Source: Octopus vulgaris (Eukaryota). Taken from it: a stretch of DNA of 64,000 nt. The stretch lies in NCBI GenBank assembly GCA_951406725.2, contig OX597818.1, positions 62,806,001 through 62,870,000 of the forward strand, given 5' to 3'. Below the pieces are notes generated by a model. It was not told the DNA's origin and did not search any database. It saw only the letters and a list, made by a program, of their open reading frames with translations. This document shows positions 3,443-61,541 of the stretch, one piece after another. The translations under genes and the position numbers were made by a program. The stretch's first letter is position 1. Each line of letters begins with the position of its first letter.

Positions 3443-4456
3443 AAGGCGGCGAGCTGGCAGAAACATTAGCACGCCGGGCGAACTGCTTTGCGGTATTTCG
3501 TCTGCTGCTACATTCTGAGTTCAAATTCCGCCGAGGTCGACTTTGCCTTTCATCCTTTCGGGGTCCATAAATTAAGTACCAGTTACGCACTGGGGTCGGT
3601 GTAATCGACTTATGACCTATGTCTCTCCTTGTTTGTCCCCTCTATGTTTAGCCCCTTGTGGGTAATAAAGAAATAGGTATTTCGCTTGTCGTTACGTTGT
3701 GAGTTCAAATTCCGCCGAGGTTGACTTTGCCTTTCATCCTTTCGGAGTCGATAAATTAAGTACCAGTTACGCACTGGGGTCGATGTAATCGAATTAATAC
3801 CTATGTCTGTCCTTGTTTGTCCTCTCTGTGTTTAGCCCCTTGTGGGTAATAAAGAAATAGGTATTTCGTCTGCTGCTACGTTCTGAGTTCAAATTCCGCT
3901 GAGGTCGACTTTGCCTTTCATCCTTTCGGGGTCGATTAAATAAGTACCAGTTACGCACTGGGGTCGCTATAATCGCATTAATCCGTTTGTCTGTCCTTGT
4001 TTGTCCCCTCTGTGTATAGTCCCTTGTGGGTACTAATGAAATAGGTATTTCGTCTGTCTTTAGGTGCTGAGTTCAAATCCCGCCGAGGTCGACTTTGTCT
4101 TTCATCATTCTAGGGTCGATCAAATAAGTACCAGTTACGCACTGGGGTCGATGTATTCGACATTAACCCTTTATCTTTCCTTGTTTGTCCCCTTTGTCCC
4201 CTGTGGGCAATAAAGGAACAAATATCTTTCGTTTTAGTAAGACGGCGAGCTGGCAGAAACGTTAGCACGCCGGGCGAAGTACTTAGCAGCATTTCGTCTG
4301 TCACTATGTTCTGAGTTCAAATTCCGTAGAGGTCGACTTTGCCTTTCATCCTTTCGGGGTCGATAAATTAAGTACCAGTTGCGTACTGGTGTCGATCTAA
4401 TCGACGGACCGCCTTCCCCAAAATTTCGAACCTTGTGCCTAGAATAGAAAAGAATA
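3443..4456 (+). mobile_element. SINE family B tandem cluster: head plus four 184-nt internal units, followed by a second copy with a different tail
   Basis: Head aggcggcgagctggcagaaac; B box gagttcaaattcc; core gtcgactttgcctttcatcctttcggggtcgataaattaagtaccag. Units restart at ggtatttcg at 3492, 3676, 3860 and 4044. The second head is at about 4240. Confidence 0.9.
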
Positions 4457-5193
4457 TCTTCTGTTTAGTATTTTACACATTCAGTAGCTAAAATTTTTGA
4501 GAATATGGAAGACAGTATTTTGCGAAAAAATCAGTTTCTCTGCCATATTGGTAATCAGAATGAAAGAATGTACGGACATTCTGTGCAATGGAGAGAAATT
4601 AGCATATACTTATTGAAACACGCAGAAGGAATTGAATTCGTGTATGTGCATGCGCAACAAGCGTAAGTCAATAGGAATTGAATTTGAGAGATGTTTTGAA
4701 CAATTTCAATAAATCTTTAGAAATTCAACAGCATGCTTATGATAAATTCTAAGATGCATTATTGATCGGGTGAAGGTCCTATCTTTATAAAGCACTCTTG
4801 CTTACCAATACTAACAACAAAAATATTATCCGAAAGTAATCAGCAATATGAATTATCAAAACTTCTTTACTATTAGAAGGACTTGAATCGGATTAACAGG
4901 ATAAATATTTCACGTTGGCTAAAGTGTGCTCTTAAGTTTATTGTAGCAATGCAGGCAGCTGCTGATAGCCAAGAAATTCATGAAATACTGCGTTGTTTAG
5001 AAGTGAAATTAAGCGATTCCTTGCAATGAAAAAAAGAAGCCGGGGATATATTTTTCTTATTGAAATCATTAACCAGTGTTCTATGATGTCCAACGACACT
5101 CTTTGAATCATTCACGAGAAGGTCCTTGTTTTTATTAACGGGGATTTTGAAACCAAAAGAATGAAAAGAGTGACATGACTGTGTGGTGTGGTA

Positions 5194-5360
5194 TAGGCGC
5201 AGGCGTGGCTGTGTGGTGAGAAGTTTGTTTTCCGACCATATTATCTCAGTTTCGGTTCCGGCACGTGCCAACTTCGGCAAGTGTCTTCTATTATAGCCTC
5301 GGTTCGACCAAACTCTTGTGAGTGGAATCAGTAGTCGGAAACTGAAAGAAGCCCATCGTT
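5194..5360 (+). mobile_element. SINE family C, 5' half
   Basis: aggcgcaggcgtggctgtgtggtgagaag...ggaaactgaaagaagccc, homologous to the full copy at 14997. Confidence 0.75.
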
Positions 5361-5401
5361 TACGTATGTGTATACATACATACATACATACACACACATA
5401 C

Positions 5402-5489
<88 letters not shown>

Positions 5490-5494
5490 GTGCG

Positions 5495-5692
5495 TGACTT
5501 GGTGGTTAGAGCATTCGGCTCACGATCGTAGAGTTTCGAGTTCGATTCGCGGCTGAGCAATACACTTTATTTCACGTTGCTCTAGTCCACTCAACTGGCA
5601 AAAGTGAGTTGTACCTGTACTTCAAGGGGCCAGCCCTGTCACATTCTGGGTCACGTTGAATCTCCTTGAGATGTATGTGAAGGGGTACGCGA
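5495..5692 (+). mobile_element. Older SINE related to family A (tRNA head, shared gtacctgta..gtcac body)
   Basis: tggtggttagagc A-box-like, gagttcgattc B box, and a body similar to family A. Confidence 0.6.
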
Positions 5693-6229
5693 ATATATAT
5701 ATATATATATATTATCCGAAATACACCGGTTTAGGGAATCAGTAAGTTTTATGCGTGTACACAGTGTGTATAAATGACAAATGATGACAATATACGTTTT
5801 ATAACCGTCCTATGCTATACATTCGCGCCATATTGAAATCAATGGAAACTTCGATTGGCTGACATTTTAAGAAATAAGATTGCTAGATATGCGAATAAAA
5901 ATGTCAGTAAGTAAGAAATGGAAAAGGTATAAAACGACTACATATGTTTCGAAGCTGAACGCTCTTTGTTACATAACTTGTAAGACACACAAAACATATT
6001 TAGCTGATCCTCAGGTCATTACGATCAGCTAAACAGATTGTAAATGTCTTTTTTACCCTTCATTCCTTATATATACACTTATATACACACACAAAACGCA
6101 ATGACCCGCGGGAGATGGGGGAACTTAGCTCTTTAGCTGTTCATGAATTGGAACGTAACATTGTAACATCATACAAACCTTTCATCCGTTTGTTACTAGT
6201 CACATGGCATTTGTTGCAACCGACAAATG

Positions 6230-6800
6230 CAAATCAGAAGAAGTAGAAATTGGGACTGGGTCTCTGAAATCAATGACGGCTATCATAATATTCAAAATAC
6301 TGGCATCGCCAACAGAAAAACTACAGCTTTGAATCTGGTCACAAGAGACGGTAGAGTGATGGTTTCTTGCATACTGCCTTTAATATCTCTTGGCAGTCGG
6401 ACACAATTAACAAGATTTTATGTAGCCGTCTTCCGAAGAATCAAATCTCAACGGAAAGTGTCATCTAGCTCTTGCGGGACATGCGATAAGACATATCCGT
6501 TCTTGACCTATGATAACACTCTTGGGCATGGTCACTCGAACCTGACCCTCAAGAAAACCATGAAGGAGCCTCATGTTGTGACCACGATTCTAGAAGTTAT
6601 CAAGATGCAGGGTTTGTATGATGTCACATTCCTTTTCGTCAATTCTAAGAAATCCTTTGTTGGGGTCCTGATTTATTCCTTAGATGGGATCCCGATACCT
6701 TAGAACAGAGCTGAAGACAATGGTGTCTAAGAGACGGTTCCACACTCCTCGCACGCACGAAACTACTGAACCAGATTCCCATTACTAGATGCAGGGCCTC
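6230..6800 (+). pseudogene. Decayed non-LTR (RTE-like) reverse transcriptase fragment
   Basis: ORF 6227-6703 contains AVFRRIKSQ (cf. QAGFRxxRST) and LFVNSKKSF (cf. FVDFKKAFD). Confidence 0.5.
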
Positions 6801-7605
6801 GATATCAAAATACTCACATAGATATATAAATTAGAGTTGATCATTAACTATTTCAAGTCTATAAGTCAGGAATGATCTGTTAAATCTCTGAATGCAACAA
6901 CAAAACCAACAGCAACAACATCAAAAGCAACAATAGCAAAGACAAGAACAATAACAGCAACAACAGCAACAACACGCTCAAAACTTCTCTTTCAAATAAA
7001 TAACATGGAAACAAATTGCCAATTGTACCGTAAACAATTACTCTTGATTATTCTAAAGCTGAAAACCAGCAGTGCACCCTAAGGGAAAATATATAACAAT
7101 TTGTTCAAGGTTTTTCAGAAATACTTTCAAAGATGTTATCAATAAACAAAATAAGTGAGCGAAAACGAGAGACAAACAGTGAAACAAATATAGAATATTC
7201 ACATTAAGTGGATTCGAGTCGTTAATGTTAGATAACGATAATACGGCGTCAAATCAAAGTGTGACTCATTTCTCAAGAGCATAGCACTTCCGTGTCGGCT
7301 GCTACCTGCAGATTTTACGATGCTCCGTCCGTCGTTCGTTACGTTTGCAAAAATGAACATTGCCTTATTTATTTATCTATTTTCTTCTTCCTGTCTGCTT
7401 TTCTGATATATATATATATATTTATATATATATATATATATGAATATATGTGTATGTATATAAATATAAATATACACACATACATATATATATTCATATT
7501 TATATACATACATATATATATATTTCTATTCTTGAGCGTTATACTAATACATCTATTTGTTTTGTACACCACATGTCTTCGTCTTTTGGTTTTTTCGTAA
7601 ACTCT

Positions 7606-9809: not shown

Positions 9810-10260
9810 ACTGACTTTCGTCTGTCTTTACGTCCCGAGCTCACAGGCCGACTATGTCGACTTTGCCTTTCATCCTTTCGAGGTCGATAAATAAAGTGCC
9901 AGTTTCACACTGGGGTCGATGTAATCGACTTAATCCGTTTGTCTGTCCTTGTTTGTCTCCTCTATGTTTAGCCCTTTGTGGGTAGTAAAGAAATATATGT
10001 CGACTTTGCCTTTCATCCTTTCGATATCGATAAAATAATTAACCACACTGGGGTCGATGTAATCGACAATCCGTTTGTCTGTCCTTGTTTGTCTCCTCTA
10101 TGTTTAGCCCTTTGTGGGTAGTAAAGAAATATATGTCGACTTTGCCTTTCATCCTTTCGATATCGATAAAATAATTACAACTTGAGAACTGGGGTCGATG
10201 TAATTGACTTTCTCCCTCTGTCGAAATTACTGGACTCTTACCAAAATTTGAAACCAGTCT
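9810..10260 (+). mobile_element. SINE family B, headless tandem of three units
   Basis: Repeated gtcgactttgcctttcatcctttcg and tgtctgtccttgtttgtc..aaagaaata blocks. Confidence 0.8.
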
Positions 10261-31430: not shown

Positions 31431-31750
31431 ATTATGTACATTATTCACCTTATTTACATTATTTACATTTGACGGATATTTGTCCTCATCTTGTTTGTTG
31501 TTAACATAAAGTTTCGGCTGATATACCCTCCAGCTTTCATCAGGTGTCTTGGGGAAATTTCGAACATCCGTTCTCATTCTTAAGGTATTTTTCTATGATA
31601 TTATTATTATTATTATTACTATTATTATTATTATTAATATTATTATTCAGGTGACTGCCTGGAATCGAACTCAGAATTTTGGGCTAAGTAGTCCACGCTT
31701 TTAACTTCTACGCCATATGCTCGTGTTCGATTCCAGGCAGTGACCTGAAT

Positions 31751-31807
<57 letters not shown>

Positions 31808-31974
31808 TGTAATAACGATAATAATAATAACATCGAAAAATACCTTAGGAATGAGAAACCATTCGAAATTTACCCCAAGACTCCTGATGAATGCTGGAGA
31901 GAATATCACCCGAAACGTTGTGTTAACAACAAACAAGATGAAGAAAAATATCCGTCAAATGTAAATATTGTAAA
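31431..31974. mobile_element. Fold-back element: tRNA-headed SINE-like unit with a Penelope-type hammerhead tail (minus, 31720-31431) plus an inverted 5'-truncated copy (plus, 31724-31974)
   Basis: The two arms are reverse complements of each other. Head tggcgtagaagttaa..gagttcgattcc, an internal (AAT)n, CTGATGA..GAAAC in both arms, and an (aatgtaaat)n tail. Confidence 0.8.
31879..31924 (+). ncRNA. Minimal type I hammerhead ribozyme motif (partly decayed)
   Basis: gactc-CTGATGA-atgctg gagagaatat cacc c-GAA-ACGT-T-gtgtt, with a palindromic ACGT stem III. The mirror copy at 31503-31548 (minus) has better stems I and II (gacac; gctg/cagc) but a mutated stem III. Confidence 0.6.
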
Positions 31975-35827: not shown

Positions 35828-36620
35828 AGGCAATGAGATGGCTGACACATAGCACGCCGGACGAAATGCGTAGCTGTATTTCGTCTGCCGTTACGTTCTT
35901 AGTTCAAATTCCGCCGAGGTCGAATTTGCCTTTCATTCTTTCGGGGTCGATAAATTAAGTACCAGTTGCGCACTGGGTTCGATATAATCGACTTAATCCG
36001 TTTGTCTGTCCTTGCTAGTCCTCTCTGTGTTTGGCCCCTTGTGGGTAGTAAAGAAATAGGTATTTCGTCTGCGGCTACGTTCTAAACTCAAATTCCCTCG
36101 AGGTCGACTTTGCCTTTCATCCTTTCGGGTTCGATTTAATAAGTACCACTTACGCACTGGGGTCGATGCAATCGACTTAATCCGTTTGTCTGTCCTTGTT
36201 TTCCCCCTTTATGTTTAGACCCTTGTGGGCAATAAAGAGATAAGTATTTCGTCTGTCATTACGTTCTTAGTTCAAATTCCGCCGCGGTCGACTTTTCCTT
36301 TCATCCTTTCGGGGTCGATAAATTAAGTACCACTTGCATACTGGAGTCGATCTAATCGACTGGACCCCTCCCCCCAAAATTTCGGGCCTTCTGCCTACCG
36401 TAGAAAAGGCGATTATCTGGCTGACACGTTAGCATGCCGTGAGAAATGCTTAGCGGCATTTCATGTCTTTACGTTCTGAGTTCAAATTCCGCTGAGGTCG
36501 ACTTTACATTTCATCATTTCGTGGTCGATAAATTAAGTACCAGTTGCTTACTGGAGTCGAGCTAATCGACTGGCTTCCTCGTCCAAAATTTCGGGCCTTC
36601 AGGCTAGAGTAGAAAAGACT
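35828..36620 (+). mobile_element. SINE family B tandem cluster with both tail types
   Basis: Four core repeats. The first two end in ..gtgggtagtaaagaaata-type tails and the last two in ..aaaatttcgggcctt..gtagaaaag. Confidence 0.85.
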
Positions 36621-37316: not shown

Positions 37317-37731
37317 AGGCGGTGAGCTGGCAGAAACGTTAGCACACCGGGCGAAATGCTTACCAGTATTTCGTCTGCCGCTACGTTGTGATTTCAAATT
37401 CCGCCGAGGTCGACTTTGCCTTTCATCCTTTCAGGATCGATTAAATAAGTACCAGTCATGCACTGGGGTCAATATAATCAACTTAGTCCGTTTGTCTGTC
37501 CTTGTTTGTCCTCTCTGTGTTTAGCCCCTTGAGGGTAGTAATGAAATAGGCATTTCGTCTGCCGTTACGTTGTGAGTTCAAATTCCGCCGTCGTTGACTT
37601 TACCTTTCATTCTTTCAGGGTCGATTAAATAAGTACCACTTACGCACTGGGGTCGATATAATGGACTTAATCCGTTTGTCTGTCCTTGTTTGTCCCCTCT
37701 GTTTGTAGCCCTTGTGGGTAGTAAAGAAATA
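37317..37731 (+). mobile_element. SINE family B, head plus two units
   Basis: 18-nt TSD ggtattcaagtggttata (37298-37315 and 37732-37749). Confidence 0.9.
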
Positions 37732-37759
37732 GGTATTCAAGTGGTTATAGAGTTGCTAA

Positions 37760-39752: not shown

Positions 39753-41139
39753 CGATAACTTGGACCAATAACCTTACGAATTTGTTCTTATATTTTGCAT
39801 GGATATGGCTTGTCAGGCTTTCTGCGTAGAAAATGCTTAAATGAATTTTACTGCCACATGTGTAGCAGCTACACTTGTAGATTCTGTGTTCTGTGGATTC
39901 CGTGTCTCTACGTTCTTTCGTTACCGGTCACAGATCAGGAATTATTTTGTAGTCATGCCGATTGCTGAGAAATTTTTCCAAAGTCAAACCATCCGATCAC
40001 ATACCAAAAATTACAACTACACTAGGTACTGGCGCACATTGTATTAATAATTAATAAAGTCACTACTGACTATTGGTCCACATTATCACCCATGACCACT
40101 CTTGTGTTTTTATGTCAAAAATACTGCTGAAATTATATCAGGTTTTCAGTATATGATAATGTTAAACTGGTTTCAAATACACCAAATGGAAACAATCACA
40201 ATACGTTGATCTTTTATTTTCTTTTTTGCTGTTCATCATTTTTCTCTACCGAATCCTCCGCGTTGTTTGTCCAGCGATTTGGGCTTAAACCCCGCTTTTA
40301 AAAATGACACATGATAACCCATGCTTCCCACCGCTACAATAAAGGTTTCACTTAAAATATTTGCCAAATGTATGCTGGTTCTGTATCTTAGGATGAAAAG
40401 AGCAAACCTCGAGTGGCCTTAACAAAATGCTGTTAACTTATTCTCCTCCTCCTCTGTGATGGATTGTAGCAGTCTATTGACTGTCTTCTGGTATAAAAGC
40501 TTCCACGCTTTTGTTTCTCCAGGTAAATGTTCCAGATTAAGCTTCTTTTGTTTGAAGAAACATTTGCAAAGGATATGTTTCTTTATTTACCCATAAAAAG
40601 GTTTACATAGAGGGGACGTTACAGGGACAGACACGGAACATGTAGGATACAAACACGCTTCTTTTATACAATATGAAAAGACAGATGGATTTACATATAT
40701 TTTATGAATAAGAGTTAAAAATATACATGATGATTGGATAGAATTTGGGTCCGGGTTAGTGAATTAACCCGCCGGCTGGTTATCCCTTTTGGTAATCATT
40801 TTCCTTTCATTTAAACATCCGACCGACCGTGCAAGCACAGCCTCGTGCATTCTCTCCTTTCTTACCACTGTCATCCATCTTTTCCCAAACGCTCTTTGTG
40901 GCAGGCTCCTCCTCTCCAGACGGATCTCATTTGCAAAGGACAGCGTATCACTAAGCCGCCATTCATTATTGCATTTGGCGCATCGTCTGCGCATGACTGC
41001 TGAGTATTTTCGCCAAATGTGTTTTGTATTGTGATGTGCTTCAGTGTTGCTTTAGTGTTTTACTTCGTGATATATACGTTTGTTCGTTATTTTATTTTTT
41101 TAATATTGATTTTTGTTTGTCTTATAGCTTTTTCGTGCG

Positions 41140-42585
41140 TTTCACGAGGGTTGTTTCAACTCACGGAACAGAGATTATGTGATCAAGCTACAGTAATAAG
41201 AAAAAATCATTGGTTCACAGAAGTAAAGCTCGAAGCTCTCAAAAGATGGGTCTTGGAAAACAGCAGCAGAGGAAACGATGAAAATACTGTACCTACTGAT
41301 AGAAGTAATCTCATAGAAGAAAACAGATGTGAGATCGATAATACACCACAGGAAAGGAACAGTGATGGCTTGCTCGATGAGAGGCATATAGATGGTTTGG
41401 AAGAAGACAATATAACTAATGGTGACATTACAGATGGACAAAAGGTAATATGTGACAGAATAAAGGCAAGGCTACAGGAGAACGATAGTAACATTATTTG
41501 CAAACTTAGAAAGGTTGATCGGTGGAAATTGAACCAAGAAACGAAAAATAGTAATGAAATTCTGAAATCCATCAGAACAAAAAACATCGCAGGAACAAAT
41601 AATTTGTTTAAGGCGGCAAGTATTGTTGTAGCAGAAAATATGGGTGTTGATACCAAGAAAAAGAAATATAATGGGAGGGACAAAAGCAAAGATCCATAGT
41701 GGAAAAGAAAAATACAGCCGGGGTTAGATATGCCCTCGAAGGACATTTCTGTATTAGACCGAAAAGAAAAGGAGAGCTTAAAAGGGAACAAAAATACAAG
41801 GCACTGAACAGGAAGTATAATACTGAAAGAAAGGGCCTGAAAGTGGTAATGGAGGAACTGAAACAGCGCCTCGTTGCAAAGAAAGCAAAGATGGTATGAT
41901 ACGACCAAAGAACGAAGGGTTACCAGCAGAATAGGTTTTTTAATTTAGATCAGAAGAGATTCTATAAAGAAATAAATGGAGAGTGTACAGTTGAAAAGTT
42001 GATACAGATAATATTGAAAACTAGGATTCGAACATGCTGATACATGGTATGAACATGAACTTAGTAAAGTACTAGAAAGTAAGAAACACAAGATGTTGTG
42101 GGATTTAGCATTCAAACTGACAGAGTAAAAGAAGCTACAAGGCCTGATTTGGTGGTGGTGGTAGTAGTTGTAGTAGTAGTAGTAGTAGATAAAGAAAATA
42201 GAAAGTGCCAGATAATTGACTTTACAGTCCAAAATGTTGAAGCAATCGATATGAGAAGTATAGAAAAAATATCAAAGTACCAGGACCTAGCTATGAGACT
42301 ATGGAAAGTGCGGGTAAAATTTATCCCAGTAGTATTAGTGCATATCCTTAACGATCTGAATTGGTGGATAAAAGAAATAGGCATAAGACCCAATTTAGTA
42401 CAACCGCAGAAAACAGTGTTAATAGGAGCAACTAGGATACTTTGGAGGGTTGTTGTCATCTACGGTTACTTGCTGTAACTCAATAAGACAGCGCTTGGCA
42501 TTTAAGGCTACTTGTTGTAGCCCGATGTAAGATTTCTTTTCTTTTCCAACAGTCTAATCTGTTGAGTGTATATGAAAATAATAAT
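41140..42585 (+). mobile_element. R4/Dong-like non-LTR retrotransposon, internally deleted (N-terminal domain joined to the RLE nuclease; RT missing)
   Basis: N-terminal motif TEQRLCDQ..IRKNHWFTEVKLE and QQNRFF..DQKRFY, then WYEH..LWD..IQTD..RPDLVV..IID..EKISKYQDL. The element ends in an aataataat tail. Confidence 0.75.
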
Positions 42586-46385: not shown

Positions 46386-46971
46386 TTAAATAATAATTAT
46401 AATAATAATAATAATAATACTTACACCTGCACTGGGTCCCTTGTTAGTTGTTTACAAGTCAAAACAATTTACTGATTGGTTCTTTGTATTACGTGCTGGT
46501 TAAACAATCAATCAATCAATCAATCAGTCGTTTGTTACTCACTGTTCCTTCGTCGCTATCCGTGACCACTTCAGTGAGTTGTTCTCTTTCTTCCAGGCTT
46601 TGCTTGACATTCAGGGTAAACTCAAACTAAATTACAGCTTGGTAGAACATACTTAAGGTCAAAGAGAAAATATTATCCGTTATTAAGTCGCCCCTTTATA
46701 ACGGTGACACAATATGTTATGCGTTCTCTTTTCATATGGAAGAGTTTCAATTGTGCCAGCACTGGCACTATTTCCTTGCAATTCAGCGTTTGAGCAAAGG
46801 ATGCCATATGATATAGACCACGAGGATGGCAAAACCGGTGCAAGAGAATCAAACTGCATAACAGATTCGTATTGCTTTCTAGGCACTGACTCATCATTGG
46901 CTACGCTTATTCCGAAGTATTCATGCATGTGTGAATATATGTCCCTCTCCATGTATATATATATATATATA

Positions 46972-47600
46972 TAAACATAGTAAATAGGGTAATAAAAATA
47001 AATTATTATTACCAGTGACTTAGCACAAAAGACGAATTAGTCATTAGACTATACGTTATTCATATATAGATACATTAAAAGGCTTCCAAATAAAGAAGCG
47101 TAGTTCTAGATACACAAAAAGGGGAAAATACATGAAATGGAATGAAAATCAAAAACGTTTACCATCTCAGCTAATCCTGTACTGCAGTTTCATCTTTTTT
47201 TTTGCAAATGAATAGAATTTATCTGCCAAGGCCAGAATCGTCAGCAGGAAGCCTTTGTAATCCGAGCTGTACATGTCGCTAGAGGTACGTGCGAATCTAA
47301 CGACCTGTATACCCTAACGTTTCAGACCAGTGCGCAGACGCAAATCATACCCGGCGAACAGAGAGGATGCCGGTAAAAATTTACGAGCAAATTTATCGAG
47401 CAATATTTAAACATAGTAAATAGGGTCATAAAAATAAATTATTATTACCAGTGACTTAGCACAGAAGACGAATTAGCCATTAGAATATACGTTATTCATA
47501 TATAAATACATTAAAATATATAAATACGTTAAAATTCATGAGTTTGTCCCCTTTTTGTGTATCTAGCACTCGCTTCTTTATTTGGAAGCCATTTAATGTA

Positions 47601-47610
<10 letters not shown>
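46972..47610 (-). mobile_element. Non-autonomous Penelope/retrozyme-like element: 436-nt monomer, terminal direct repeat, inverted terminal segment, internal hammerhead
   Basis: Direct repeat 46972-47080 / 47408-47516. Segment 47534-47610 is the inverted copy of about 47062-47137. (TA)n flanks both sides. Confidence 0.75.
47175..47249 (-). ncRNA. Type I hammerhead ribozyme with complete core
   Basis: Minus strand: TCCTG-CTGACGA-[stem II including GCAGAT/ATTTGC]-GAA-ACTGCAGT-A-CAGGA. Stem I TCCTG/CAGGA is a perfect 5 bp, stem III is palindromic, and the cleavage triplet is GUA. Confidence 0.75.
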
Positions 47611-47651
<41 letters not shown>

Positions 47652-55192: not shown

Positions 55193-55525
55193 GATACTAC
55201 TCGACAACTGCGCAGGTCTACCGATTATCGGTGATGCGAGCAAAGTGCCCAGCCCATTTAAACTTGCTGCGTGTATATTCTACGATGACAACCTCACGCC
55301 AGACTTCTCTCTGATGAGCTCGCTACTGATGTGCTCTCTCAACGAGATTCCAAGCATTGACCTCTCCATGGATCTTTGAGCTGCTACTAATCTCTGTTCT
55401 TCTCTCTTTGTTGTAGTCCATGTTTCACTACCATATAACATTTCAGATAGAACTGTGCTATTGATGACGTTGGCGCGGGTGGTCCTGTCCAACTTTCCCT
55501 CGAGCACATCCCTTATGACATTAAA
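55193..55525 (-). pseudogene. RTE-clade LINE ORF fragment
   Basis: [62 protein letters not shown]. Confidence 0.85.
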
Positions 55526-55536
55526 CTTATATGTAC

Positions 55537-55637
<101 letters not shown>

Positions 55638-57176: not shown

Positions 57177-58110
57177 AATCTCTGAGCGATGTATAGACAG
57201 TAGCAACAGGACATCGTGAAGTATATTTGCCGCCTAAATGTGGCTAACCTTTAAGGGTCGATGCTACTGTAGCTTGTAGCCACAGGAAGACATCTCCTCC
57301 AGCTGGCTATTGACACACTATCTGTGCCCTATCAGGATTTGCAAAGGGAAATCATCGTTCCTATCTGTAGCTTGACGTAATACCCACGGACATGAGTTTC
57401 TGGGTATTGACCTTGTGAAACTTGTACAGCTGTCGAACTGTTTCGATATTTGATTTGGAAAAGATGGATGCACATTTAACAAGCATGGTGTGTACTCTTG
57501 AAGGTGGAACTCGGATTTGATATCAAACGTATTGATTACTACCAAACAAAAGAATCACAGATAGTGCTTGCACTTTATAGAAAATAGAATGAAGAACTGT
57601 AACTGCCAGACAATAAGCATATTCGCATCTTCGCGGTTGATCATTCAAGCTCGAAATAACAGCTAAATATCAACATGTCATGAATGAGAAGTCCATACAT
57701 ATAACACATGTTAACTATTGCAATGTCAATAATCATTAAACTACGAATTAAGTTATAGTATTCGGGCATAAAATATTTCCGTATTTAAACATGTATCCGA
57801 CGTATGCACAATATGTAAATGTCTTTTAGCTATTTCAACTAGCTTCTGGCTTGTGTTTCCTTTAATTAGCAATTGATATCTGGTTATCTTCTCATGCAGA
57901 AACGATAGGTGTACGTAGTTTCTGACAAGTGGTCACCCAACCGTGAAACATTTAGGTTACTTTCTTTCATATTCCCGGTTTGAGAACAATTATAATGCAT
58001 CTGTACCTTGATTTGCTTTCTATATTCACACTTTCGCAAAGTGGACATTATCAACTGTTAGGTATTCTACACACACACACATATATGTAAATATGTATGT
58101 GTGTGTATAT

Positions 58111-58925: not shown

Positions 58926-59485
58926 ACAGACATTGCGATATTAAGAAGCCAGTGTAGAACTCAATATACAGCGATTCAGAACGATGCGTTTGTCTGATAC
59001 TGATAAAATGAAAATGAGAACGCAAAGGAATAAACAATTATATTATAAACTCCATTAGCTCACAACTGATTCTGCTATATCATGAAGTAGACGGGAATGA
59101 CTCAGTCACACCTCTTACCAGAAACAGCTGTAAGGTCACAAATTTCATAGGCTAATTTATTCCGTTATCGTCTCTCGTTTTAATTACATACGTAATACGC
59201 ACACATATGTATGTGCACACATACACACACAGAGTCACACACGCACTCACACAGCTATCATATATCCATAAAAGGCAACATGGATTAAATTGAAGAGGTG
59301 TACATTCATATCTAACTCTTGAACATTAAAGTATGAAAGGTATTCACTGCTAGAATTCGTGAAGAAATAGTCCTTCCCACAGGTATTCTGTGTAAAACCT
59401 TCTCACGAAACCCTGCTCAAATTAAGACCACTTGTTATTAAACATGCTGTTTCGGTTTGATATCGCAACTTTAGGTTTAAATACC

Positions 59486-59956
59486 TGTTTCTTTATTACC
59501 CAGAAGGGGCTAAACACAGAGAGGACAAACAAGGACAGACAAACGGATTAAGCCGATCACGTTGACACCAGTGCGTAACTGGTACTAAATTTATCGACCC
59601 CGAAAGGTTGAAAGCCAAAGTCGACCTCGGCGGAATTTGAACTCAGAACGTAACGGCAGACGAAATACCGCTAAGCATTTCGCCCGGTGCACTAACGTTT
59701 CTGCCAGCTAGCCGCCTTCAGGTTTAAATACCTATTTCTTTACTACCCACAAGGGGCTAAACACAGAGAGGACAAACAAGGAGAGACAAACGGATTAAGT
59801 CGATTATATCGACCCCAGGTACTTATTTAATCGACCCCGAACGGATGAAAGGCAAAGTCGACCTCGGCGGAATTTGAACACAGAACGTAACGGCAGTCGA
59901 AATACGGCTACGCATTTCGCCCGGTGCGCTAACGTTTCTGCCAGCTAGCCGCCTTC
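59486..59956 (-). mobile_element. Two SINE family B monomers in tandem, separated by a third copy of the TSD
   Basis: aggtttaaatacc at 59473, 59720 and 59957. Confidence 0.9.
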
Positions 59957-61003
59957 AGGTTTAAATACCATCACACAACCTTCTCATAACTGGTGAAACA
60001 CTGGATGGCAATTTCCTCACCGTCAGAATTTGAACTAAAATTTAGACGTGTTACTCTCGCGTAGCTTTGACCATCGTCTCTAAAATAATCTATCAGATAC
60101 ATTAAATGCAACGATACACTTTCCTCTTTGCAATACATTGTCTGTTAATTTGCCACTCTAGCCTTTAGCAACTTTTAAAATTTATCAACTAAAAATTTGA
60201 CAGCAATAATAAATTGTTTACTTCGGAAATACAATATATTCCATTAATATAATTGAAAAGATAAACAATTTATTTGGTATCCTATGCAGAAAAGTGTTAG
60301 CGTATTCACAGAAAATTCTAGATAAAATTATGTATGAAACAAAAGAATAGCTTTTTTTCATTGAGAGTGTTCGTCTGCGACAAAACTCATTCACGGTATC
60401 TTCGGTTAGGAAGAACGATAAGCGAACACTAAGAATAGGCAATATTGGTTTATACAAGGTGTTCATAAAGTCTTTCCACTGTAAGCATGTTATGGCAAAA
60501 TAAATAATTATAAAATGGTATAAGTTTAGGTAAAAGATATATTGGACTTTACAAGACGTTAAAAAACTTTATAAGAGGTGTTGAAAGTGTCATCCTTCAT
60601 TTTAAATATATAAGTTGACTCTTCTACACATGTTTTGAAAAACGTCTCGGGTAGTCTGACGCGGTATGGATCGCATGTAGGTTATGATTGCGAATTTTAG
60701 CTCATTAATAGATTTGGGCGATTCTTGTAAACTGATACTTTACTTGTTTCCCGAAAAATTCCCTACTGAGAGACGCTTTGAACACCCTGTTCGATGAATA
60801 TGTTTGAGTTCGGGTAGGTAGGTACATTGAATTATTTTGCAAGTACATGCGTGCATTTTATGGGTGTGACAATTTACACGTACACATACAAATACACACA
60901 CACACACACGAACACACACACACACAGACACGAACACACACACACACACACGCACGCACACACATACACACACACACACACGCATGATACATTGGCTCGT
61001 TAA

Positions 61004-61325: not shown

Positions 61326-61541
61326 CTGAATCTATACATACATACATACATACATACTTACATAGATAAATACATACATGCATACATACATATATATGTA
61401 TCAGAGGGTACTAATAGGCAGCTGATTCGGTTCTCTAGATTTGAATTCCTGTTATCAGATTAACTGCCGTTCCTTCTGCATCATTTGCGGAGGAAAGATA
61501 CAACTCCTACAATATTTACATGATTTACATTTGACGTATAC

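What the first reader, a model, noticed from the sequence alone, without database searches (positions are those of the whole stretch)
46972..47610. Retrozyme-like mini-element with a complete hammerhead core and Penelope-style termini
Seen: a non-coding 436-nt monomer bounded by a 109-nt direct repeat (46972-47080 and 47408-47516), followed by an inverted copy of part of itself (47534-47610), sitting in (TA)n. On the minus strand it carries TCCTG-CTGACGA-stem II-GAA-ACTGCAGT-A-CAGGA. Every core nucleotide is present, stem I is perfect, stem III is a self-complementary 8-mer, and stem II is unusually long with an imperfect base. Known: Penelope-like elements and non-LTR retrozymes carry type I hammerheads with palindromic stem III that cleave as dimers, form partial tandem repeats, and often have an inverted 5' segment. 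Retrozymes yield monomeric circular RNAs. Inference: this is a non-autonomous, self-cleaving and possibly circRNA-forming family mobilised by the Penelope elements whose relics are scattered through the window.
Basis: partly seen in the sequence, partly recalled or inferred. Interest (0 to 1): 0.8.

Follow-up and report, generated by a model that had tools for sequence, protein, structure and literature searches.

The report
Hammerhead-bearing mini-parasite of Penelope elements
This is one copy of a multi-copy, 436-base non-coding repeat that carries a conserved hammerhead ribozyme motif and has the tandem-plus-inverted ends typical of Penelope-like jumping genes, so it is likely a new family of the already described animal 'retrozymes'; self-cutting and RNA circles remain untested.

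Summary
Observation confirmed. The direct repeat is 104/109 identical with period 436, the inverted piece is 89% identical, both ends abut (TA)n, and a complete type I hammerhead core lies on the minus strand (0 of 20,000 monomer shuffles give one). Contigs from 4 of 4 public runs laid show a diverged multi-copy family covering the whole unit and its head-to-tail junction. Two helix pairs change on both sides (stem I C-G to U-A; stem II base U.U to G-C). Sister families share the 3' blocks but have a different GUC cleavage arm with another near-palindromic stem III. The 'imperfect' U.U base is a known active variant (axolotl HHR_Amex2). Stem II resolves into 4 bp, an internal loop and 9 bp. 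Best reading: a non-autonomous Penelope-dependent element, i.e. a non-LTR retrozyme, a class already described and already linked to Penelope elements in a 2026 preprint. Limits: this locus holds one hammerhead, so it cannot itself release a 436-nt circle. No autonomous partner was found, and the window's Penelope-like relics share no sequence with it. Cleavage, expression and circles are untested. New member of a known kind.

The parts
46954..46971 (.). (TA)n target run at the element's RNA 3' end
   Evidence: sequence
46972..47407 (-). full 436-nt non-coding monomer (RNA sense inferred to be the minus strand, from the hammerhead)
   Evidence: tiled end to end by contigs of other copies
46972..47080 (-). 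3' terminal segment, first copy of the 109-nt direct repeat; 46988-47070 is the deepest block in all four runs (candidate PLE-protein recognition and priming region, inferred)
47135..47173 (-). block just 3' of the cleavage site, shared with more abundant sister families that carry a different hammerhead arm
   Evidence: tables 2 and 7
47175..47249 (-). type I hammerhead: stem I 5 bp, CUGACGA, stem II (4 bp + internal loop + 9 bp + 11-nt loop), GAA, palindromic stem III, predicted cut 47180|47179
   Evidence: pair changes
47163..47269 (-). predicted extended hammerhead: distal stem I helix 47269-47262 with 47163-47170; possible 6-bp loop1-loop2 pseudoknot 47255-47250 with 47228-47233 (weak, post hoc)
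   Evidence: chance of such a helix 2.6-8.5%
47408..47516 (-). 3' 109 nt of the upstream monomer (partial tandem, pseudo-LTR-like)
   Evidence: junction seen in other copies
47516..47533 (.). 18-bp tandem duplication of the segment where the direct and inverted parts overlap (equivalent 47062-47079)
47535..47609 (+). 5' inverted piece, equivalent to 47136->47062; its outer end starts in an internal TA run and merges with the target (TA)n; it stops about 43 nt short of the upstream cleavage-site equivalent
47604..47650 (.). (TA)n target run at the element's 5' end
   Evidence: sequence

Best explanation
It is a 1.25-unit copy, with an inverted 5' piece, of a multi-copy 436-nt non-coding repeat family that carries a type I hammerhead motif and is likely a non-autonomous passenger of a Penelope-like retrotransposon (an animal non-LTR retrozyme). 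Shown: the anatomy, the family, the head-to-tail junction in other copies, and two-sided changes in the hammerhead helices. Inferred steps: (1) Tandem copies elsewhere are transcribed on the minus strand as multimers. (2) Hammerheads cut after GUA, probably in pairs through the palindromic stem III. (3) A PLE reverse transcriptase/endonuclease binds the conserved 3' block, nicks (TA)n and starts cDNA at a fixed internal point (46972), 208 nt downstream of the cut site, as the anole PLE protein does in vitro. (4) It reads through one uncut hammerhead into the next unit. (5) The second target end primes at an internal TA run of the RNA (equivalent 47062), which yields the inverted piece and the 18-bp duplication in the same event. 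I favour an incompletely cut linear multimer as template over a 436-nt circle (about 60:40); the insert fits both. This copy, with a single hammerhead, is likely a dead-end offspring.
For: Family: 80, 544, 278 and 87 contigs laid in X1, X4, X2 and X6, mostly 90-95% alike. In X4, summed depth at hammerhead positions is 3,710-7,329 against 44.3 on the flank (rough, not a copy number). Contigs tile the monomer (X1 records 2, 3, 5, 8), and only 1-9% of what was laid runs on into unlike sequence. Head-to-tail: depth just beyond the junction is 53-89% of that before it, and table 5c lists joints 47415->46995 in X2 (two) and X6 (one). Selection on the fold (12 shown substitution rows in 47173-47268): 6 keep or restore pairs, including both sides of 47247/47177 (C-G to U-A; X4 59% and 69%) and of 47237/47192 (U.U to G-C; X4 62% and 63%). 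By depth arithmetic all four of these changes lie in one X1 contig (record 3, depth 23.4). Three rows fall at unpaired or variable positions, including N7. None of the 40 shown rows hits an invariant core base. Loose ends behind 47173 in 4 of 4 runs read, on the minus strand, as a GUC cleavage triplet with a different stem I arm; in X1 and X6 they give GAAA plus a different near-palindromic stem III. PLE signature: partial tandem, inverted 5'-truncated copy and microsatellite bias (PMC8557442 passages); internal RT start and AT-rich nicking of both strands (PMC11167929). Class: 150-450-bp, low-GC tandem units with type I hammerheads (PMC7229834 sections 13-15, 17). U10.1.U11.1 occurs in the active axolotl HHR_Amex2 and in PMC3088659.
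Against: 47 of 87 variant rows and 112 of 136 loose ends were hidden, so core conservation is shown only among the displayed rows. Three shown variants (47245, 47264, 47268) would break a pair unless a hidden partner change exists. One sister arm (X2 consensus of 3 contigs) reads C where G12 is expected. ViennaRNA does not favour the hammerhead in this copy: stem I pair probability 0.05-0.08, double-hammerhead -38.9 against -53.3 kcal/mol for the dimer optimum (tertiary contacts not modelled). Rfam score is below gathering. No autonomous partner was found. The junction is not formally bridged by 31 letters on both sides, because my reference ended 23 nt past it. In 10.64898/2026.07.22.740005 only 1 of 9 predicted retrozyme dimers cleaved in vitro, and in PMC11167929 hammerhead cleavage was dispensable for insertion in vitro.
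Confidence: 0.75

Rival explanations
1. Circle-propagated retrozyme in the strict sense: arrays give 436-nt circular RNAs, and these circles are the templates that an RT copies more than once around, giving the 1.25-mer. This shares the identity in the best explanation and differs in the template.
For: Coral, mussel and axolotl units of this architecture accumulate as circles. The insert crosses an intact cut site. Differences between the repeated parts are compatible with private decay from one template: the inverted piece matches the closest subfamily at the sites checked.
Against: The insert stops before the upstream cut-site equivalent, as a linear template bounded by one cut would require. 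The predicted circle is only moderately paired (58% paired, -98 kcal/mol; linear monomer z -1.95). No RNA evidence was obtainable.
Confidence: 0.3
2. By-product of an autonomous PLE: a pseudo-LTR fragment or internally deleted copy, made rarely and not itself a propagating family.
For: All terminal features are those of PLEs, and hammerheads are standard in pLTRs. The 3' blocks are far deeper than the rest of the unit, so they could belong to an abundant autonomous parent. Most loose ends were hidden.
Against: The ORF-less junction recurs in all four runs at 53-89% of neighbouring depth, and few contigs run on into unlike sequence. The hammerhead is of the canonical-like kind (4-bp proximal stem II, no extra base after A9, a real stem III), not the minimal pLTR kind of PMC4209133.
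Confidence: 0.12
3. A satellite unit amplified at the DNA level that inherited a now-dead hammerhead; this copy is a stray fragment.
For: No activity or expression is shown, and the predicted folding of this copy is not the active one.
Against: Two-sided pair changes and re-written near-palindromes in sister arms imply selection on RNA structure. The inversion with an 18-bp duplication in (TA)n fits target-primed reverse transcription (established for PLEs).
Confidence: 0.08
4. Chance motif or assembly artefact.
For: Below the Rfam gathering score; the region is rich in simple repeats.
Against: 0 of 20,000 and 0 of 300 shuffles; the unit and its junction recur in four independent studies.
Confidence: 0.02

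Closest known systems
Animal non-LTR retrozymes (Cervera and de la Pena 2020, PMC7229834: coral, mussel, axolotl; sections 13, 14, 15, 17 and passages read)
   Same: Non-coding, low-GC unit of 150-450 bp in head-to-tail copies with one type I hammerhead per unit. Like axolotl HHR_Amex2 it has a 2-bp stem III capped by a tetraloop and a U.U at the base of stem II.
   Different: Unit is at the top of the size range given there; stem II is extended by an internal loop and a 9-bp helix; this copy has PLE-type 5' inversion and (TA)n targeting, for which my term search of that paper gave 0 hits ('inverted'). Circles and cleavage were shown there and not here. That paper has 0 mentions of octopus or cephalopod.
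Non-LTR retrozymes as non-autonomous PLE derivatives (Li, Clavereau and Pollet 2026, bioRxiv 10.64898/2026.07.22.740005; parts 1-3 of 5 read, supplements closed)
   Same: Proposes the same relationship: hammerhead-bearing tandem units (51-972 bp) derived from pLTRs and using PLE enzymes, with monomeric offspring copies.
   Different: Sampled 31 vertebrates, 3 insects and 1 coral, and states that other organisms were not examined. It argues from co-occurrence and pLTR homology; here the link is the insertion structure, and pLTR homology could not be tested.
Endonuclease-bearing Penelope-like elements and their pLTR hammerheads (PMC4209133 parts 1-2 of 4; PMC8557442 passages; PMC11167929 parts 1-2 of 4)
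   Same: Partial tandem, inverted 5'-truncated piece, microsatellite targets, a fixed end downstream of a type I hammerhead, palindromic stem III.
   Different: No RT/GIY-YIG ORF. The hammerhead is not the minimal type. The offset between the direct and inverted ends is 90 nt, not the usual 30-40-nt tail.
Rfam RF00163 Hammerhead_1
   Same: Full-length alignment, all core positions matched.
   Different: 19.8 bits against a gathering score of 34, with a 40-nt insertion in stem II.

Membership tests
Type I hammerhead ribozyme | Core CUGANGA, GAA, A15.1-U16.1, NUH | tested here: met
Type I hammerhead ribozyme | Stems I, II, III in type I order, kept across copies | tested here: met
   helix model; two two-sided pair changes; 3 shown variants unexplained and 47 rows hidden
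Type I hammerhead ribozyme | Rfam RF00163 gathering score | tested here: not met
   19.8 against 34 bits, E 0.013, long stem II
Type I hammerhead ribozyme | Loop 1 - loop 2 tertiary contact | tested here: inconclusive
   6-bp pseudoknot possible, chance 2.6-8.5%, no covariation seen
Type I hammerhead ribozyme | Site-specific self-cleavage | not testable with these tools
   needs in vitro assay
Animal non-LTR retrozyme | Non-coding unit of about 150-450 bp, GC below 50% | tested here: met
   436 nt, 36.5% GC, no long frame
Animal non-LTR retrozyme | Multi-copy, head-to-tail organisation | tested here: met
   (junction depth and table 5c joints)
Animal non-LTR retrozyme | [quoted passage not shown] 2026) | tested here: inconclusive
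   not met at this locus (one hammerhead); arrays elsewhere cannot be seen in the listed pieces of 82-216 nt and no genome is held
Animal non-LTR retrozyme | Expressed as linear and circular monomer RNAs | not testable with these tools
   only contigs of guessed-RNA runs were available
Penelope-like element (autonomous) | ORF with PLE RT and GIY-YIG endonuclease | tested here: not met
   no such frame in the unit; none detected nearby
PLE-mobilised insertion | Partial tandem plus adjacent inverted 5'-truncated piece | tested here: met
   compared with PMC8557442
PLE-mobilised insertion | Microsatellite target, target-site duplication not discernible | tested here: met
   TA-led loose ends at the same end in X1, X2 and X4 (weak)
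PLE-mobilised insertion | 30-40-nt tail at one end only | tested here: inconclusive
   the offset between direct and inverted ends is 90 nt
PLE-mobilised insertion | Sequence homology to the pLTR of an autonomous partner | not testable with these tools
   no genome held; the window's relics do not match
Minimal pLTR hammerhead (min-HHR, PMC4209133) | Extra base between A9 and G10.1; stem III absent or vestigial | tested here: not met
   A9 directly precedes 10.1; 2-bp stem III with tetraloop

The most novel reading that the evidence does not exclude
A superfamily of ORF-less PLE parasites in what is probably a cephalopod genome (host recalled from SINE likeness, not shown by any search). Members share one 3' recognition region, while their hammerheads have diverged into several sequence types that all keep a dimer-forming palindrome. 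This family's ribozyme would use an extended stem II and a loop1-loop2 pseudoknot, and would make ~436-nt circles that PLE protein copies from a fixed internal start. A single insertion carrying both a canonical-like retrozyme hammerhead and the full PLE insertion signature would be direct structural evidence, outside vertebrates, that retrozymes are moved by PLE machinery, and would give a compact substrate for testing whether the template is a circle or a linear multimer.
Probability: 0.25. Interest if true: 0.6.

Novelty: new member of a known kind. Interest (0 to 1): 0.38.

Why it matters
The class is known, so the value is incremental. How animal retrozymes are mobilised, and whether the circle is the template, is still open in the papers read. 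This family offers a testable case: a fixed reverse-transcription end 208 nt from the cut site, PLE-type 5' inversion, and sister families with diverged ribozymes on a shared tail. It would also extend retrozymes to a probable cephalopod; my searches for 'octopus' + 'Penelope' + 'hammerhead' and 'cephalopod' + 'hammerhead ribozyme' listed no paper on such a family by title or abstract start, and an octopus repeat annotation (PMC13282606, passages and its supplement searched) never mentions ribozymes. The library lacks most subscription papers and repeat databases, so the family may already sit in a repeat library.

Tried and rejected
No genome is held for this window, so no genome-wide BLAST, array census or partner search was possible. 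No RNA holder listed. X6 is only guessed to be RNA, is contigs, and mirrors the DNA runs; it is not used as evidence on expression. I laid 4 of the 24 listed runs, and only 46820-47430, so the inverted end was not checked in other copies. The X4 flank contig ends before the (TA)n run, so filled or empty site is unknown; the flank had no cover in X1, X2 and X6. A 20-mer scan of metagenome contigs gave 2 loci; both match only 21-32 nt and lack the first half of the core, so I treat them as chance. Pfam on 288 low-complexity-masked frame pieces: 17 weak hits below cut-off, none RT or GIY-YIG. That scan also missed the likely LINE relics, so it is weak. Protein searches meant to name the host or a PLE partner: no homologue, and two unnamed proteins. 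No tRNA gene in the window. The bacterial promoter scan is not applicable. I considered reading the depth fall at 47177 as 5' ends piling up at the cut site and rejected it: the deep block does not continue leftwards, and the loose ends show sister-family arms. For the same reason the depth peak at the 3' end mixes 5' truncation with sister families. I considered that the inverted piece came from a different template than the monomer and rejected it: the remaining depth at those sites is explained by one divergent subfamily, so the monomer's letters are probably private changes. Look-ups of earlier findings by sequence and place returned nothing.

Full report
Observation. 46972-47080 and 47408-47516 are 104/109 identical, 436 nt apart. 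47535-47609 is an inverted copy of 47136->47062 at 89.5%. Both ends merge with (TA)n. An 18-bp tandem duplication at the inversion junction repeats exactly the stretch where the direct and inverted parts overlap (equivalent 47062-47079), which points to one insertion event (inference). The unit is 36.5% GC and has no long reading frame. No second copy lies in the window.

The hammerhead. On the minus strand all core bases are present, stem I has 5 Watson-Crick pairs, and the stem III region is an 8-nt palindrome (self-duplex -11.1 kcal/mol); the predicted cut is between 47180 and 47179. A strict descriptor finds this one site in the window and none in 300 window shuffles or 20,000 monomer shuffles. 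Rfam misses it at the gathering score but aligns RF00163 over its full length at 19.8 bits, E 0.013, when given 151 nt. The long stem II resolves into 4 proximal pairs, an internal loop, a 9-bp helix and an 11-nt loop, and stem I can extend by a distal 8-bp helix. Against: thermodynamic folding of this copy prefers other pairings (stem I probability 0.05-0.08; double-hammerhead 14 kcal/mol above the dimer optimum), though tertiary contacts are not modelled. A 6-bp loop1-loop2 pseudoknot is possible but has a 2.6-8.5% chance rate; such pseudoknots are common in hammerheads (PMC3088659 passages).

The family. No genome is held. 20 of 24 listed public runs, from 9 studies and 4 organism labels, hold part of the stretch. 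I laid 4 of them, all contigs, on 46820-47430: 80, 544, 278 and 87 contigs, mostly 90-95% alike. In X4 the flank has depth 44.3 and hammerhead positions 3,710-7,329, roughly a hundredfold (not a copy number). Contigs tile the whole monomer, depth beyond the head-to-tail junction is 53-89% of depth before it, three records join 47415 to 46995, and 1-9% of laid contigs run on into unlike sequence. The 436-nt ORF-less unit is therefore a family, not a one-off deletion. The reference gave only 23 nt beyond the junction, short of the tool's 31-letter bridging rule.

Selection on the fold. Of 12 shown substitution rows in 47173-47268, 6 keep or restore pairs: 47247/47177 (C-G to U-A), 47237/47192 (U.U to G-C), 47203 (G.A to G.U, nearly all depth) and 47267 (G.A to U-A). 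Three fall at unpaired or variable positions, including N7. Three (47245, 47264, 47268) would break pairs unless partner changes are among the 47 hidden rows. None of the 40 shown rows is at an invariant core base. About 35-57% of depth lacks the change at 47237, so U.U is probably a subfamily state. It is documented in the active axolotl HHR_Amex2 (PMC7229834 section 15) and in PMC3088659. In 4 of 4 runs, loose ends behind 47173 read on the minus strand as a GUC triplet with a different stem I arm. In X1 and X6 they continue into GAAA and a different near-palindromic stem III; X2 shows C at G12; the X4 consensus is mixed (0.67 agreement). Depth at 47135-47176 is about four times that of the core in X4. 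I read this as more abundant sister families that share the 3' blocks but have diverged hammerheads (24 of 136 loose ends shown).

Mechanism. PLE insertions form partial tandems, often with an inverted 5'-truncated copy, and favour microsatellites (PMC8557442 passages). The anole PLE protein nicks AT-rich DNA on both strands and starts reverse transcription inside its RNA, downstream of the hammerhead, using mostly uncut RNA (PMC11167929). This element fits. The end at 46972 lies 208 nt downstream of the cut site. The insert crosses one intact hammerhead and stops about 43 nt before the next cut-site equivalent. The inverted piece starts in an internal TA run that can pair with the target. Transcription, cleavage, binding and priming are inferred, not shown. 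The template could be a partly cut linear multimer or a circle; I lean 60:40 to linear. With one hammerhead, this locus cannot release a monomer or circle itself.

Partner. The window holds one inverted pair of decayed minimal-hammerhead relics (31453-31597 minus, 31831-31974 plus, 88% alike), as described for truncated PLEs (PMC4209133). They lie in (AAT)n and share no convincing sequence with the element. Pfam found no RT or GIY-YIG in 288 pieces. The mobilising element is unknown. The host looks like an octopus from its SINE-like 184-nt repeats (recalled; no call confirms it). PLEs make up 6.83% of the O. vulgaris genome in 190 families (PMC13282606 supplement row).

Comparison and verdict. 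It works like, and on the testable features files under, the animal non-LTR retrozymes (PMC7229834), which a 2026 preprint already proposes to be non-autonomous PLE derivatives (10.64898/2026.07.22.740005, parts 1-3 of 5; its supplements were closed and may list related families). It is not an autonomous PLE, and its ribozyme is not of the minimal pLTR type. The defining RNA features, cleavage and circles, are untested, and only 1 of 9 predicted dimers cleaved in that preprint. What is new is the family, the extended stem II, the sister hammerheads on a shared tail, and a PLE insertion signature on a retrozyme-type unit in a probable cephalopod. New member of a known kind; interest 0.38.

Noticed in passing
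window 31453-31597 (-) and 31831-31974 (+): Diverging inverted pair, 88% alike, each with a decayed minimal hammerhead core, in (AAT)n: looks like stump PLE ends of another family. A 26-nt third match lies at 61515-61540.
   Followed up: partly
loose ends behind window 47173: Sister families with GUC-type hammerheads and different near-palindromic stem III share the block 47135-47173 and appear more abundant than the window's family.
   Followed up: partly
window 47082-47099 (-) and 47572-47589 (+): Small 6-bp hairpin kept in both the monomer and the inverted piece; could be part of a protein-binding site.
   Followed up: no
window 41004-42478 (+): Broken reading frames that look like an R4/Dong-type non-LTR relic (recalled); 41127-41696 is 53-55% identical to two unnamed proteins.
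   Followed up: partly
window 3492-4197, 9853-10209, 35876-36361, 37368-37737, 59469-59969: Tandem arrays of related SINE-like units with periods 136-237, resembling octopus SINEs (recalled).
   Followed up: no
window 57364-57522 (-): 53-aa frame with a weak SAM_2 hit (E 0.0065, below cut-off); possible exon, no homologue found.
   Followed up: partly
window 55385-55558 (-): Frame piece that reads like an RTE-type LINE relic (recalled); no Pfam hit.
   Followed up: no
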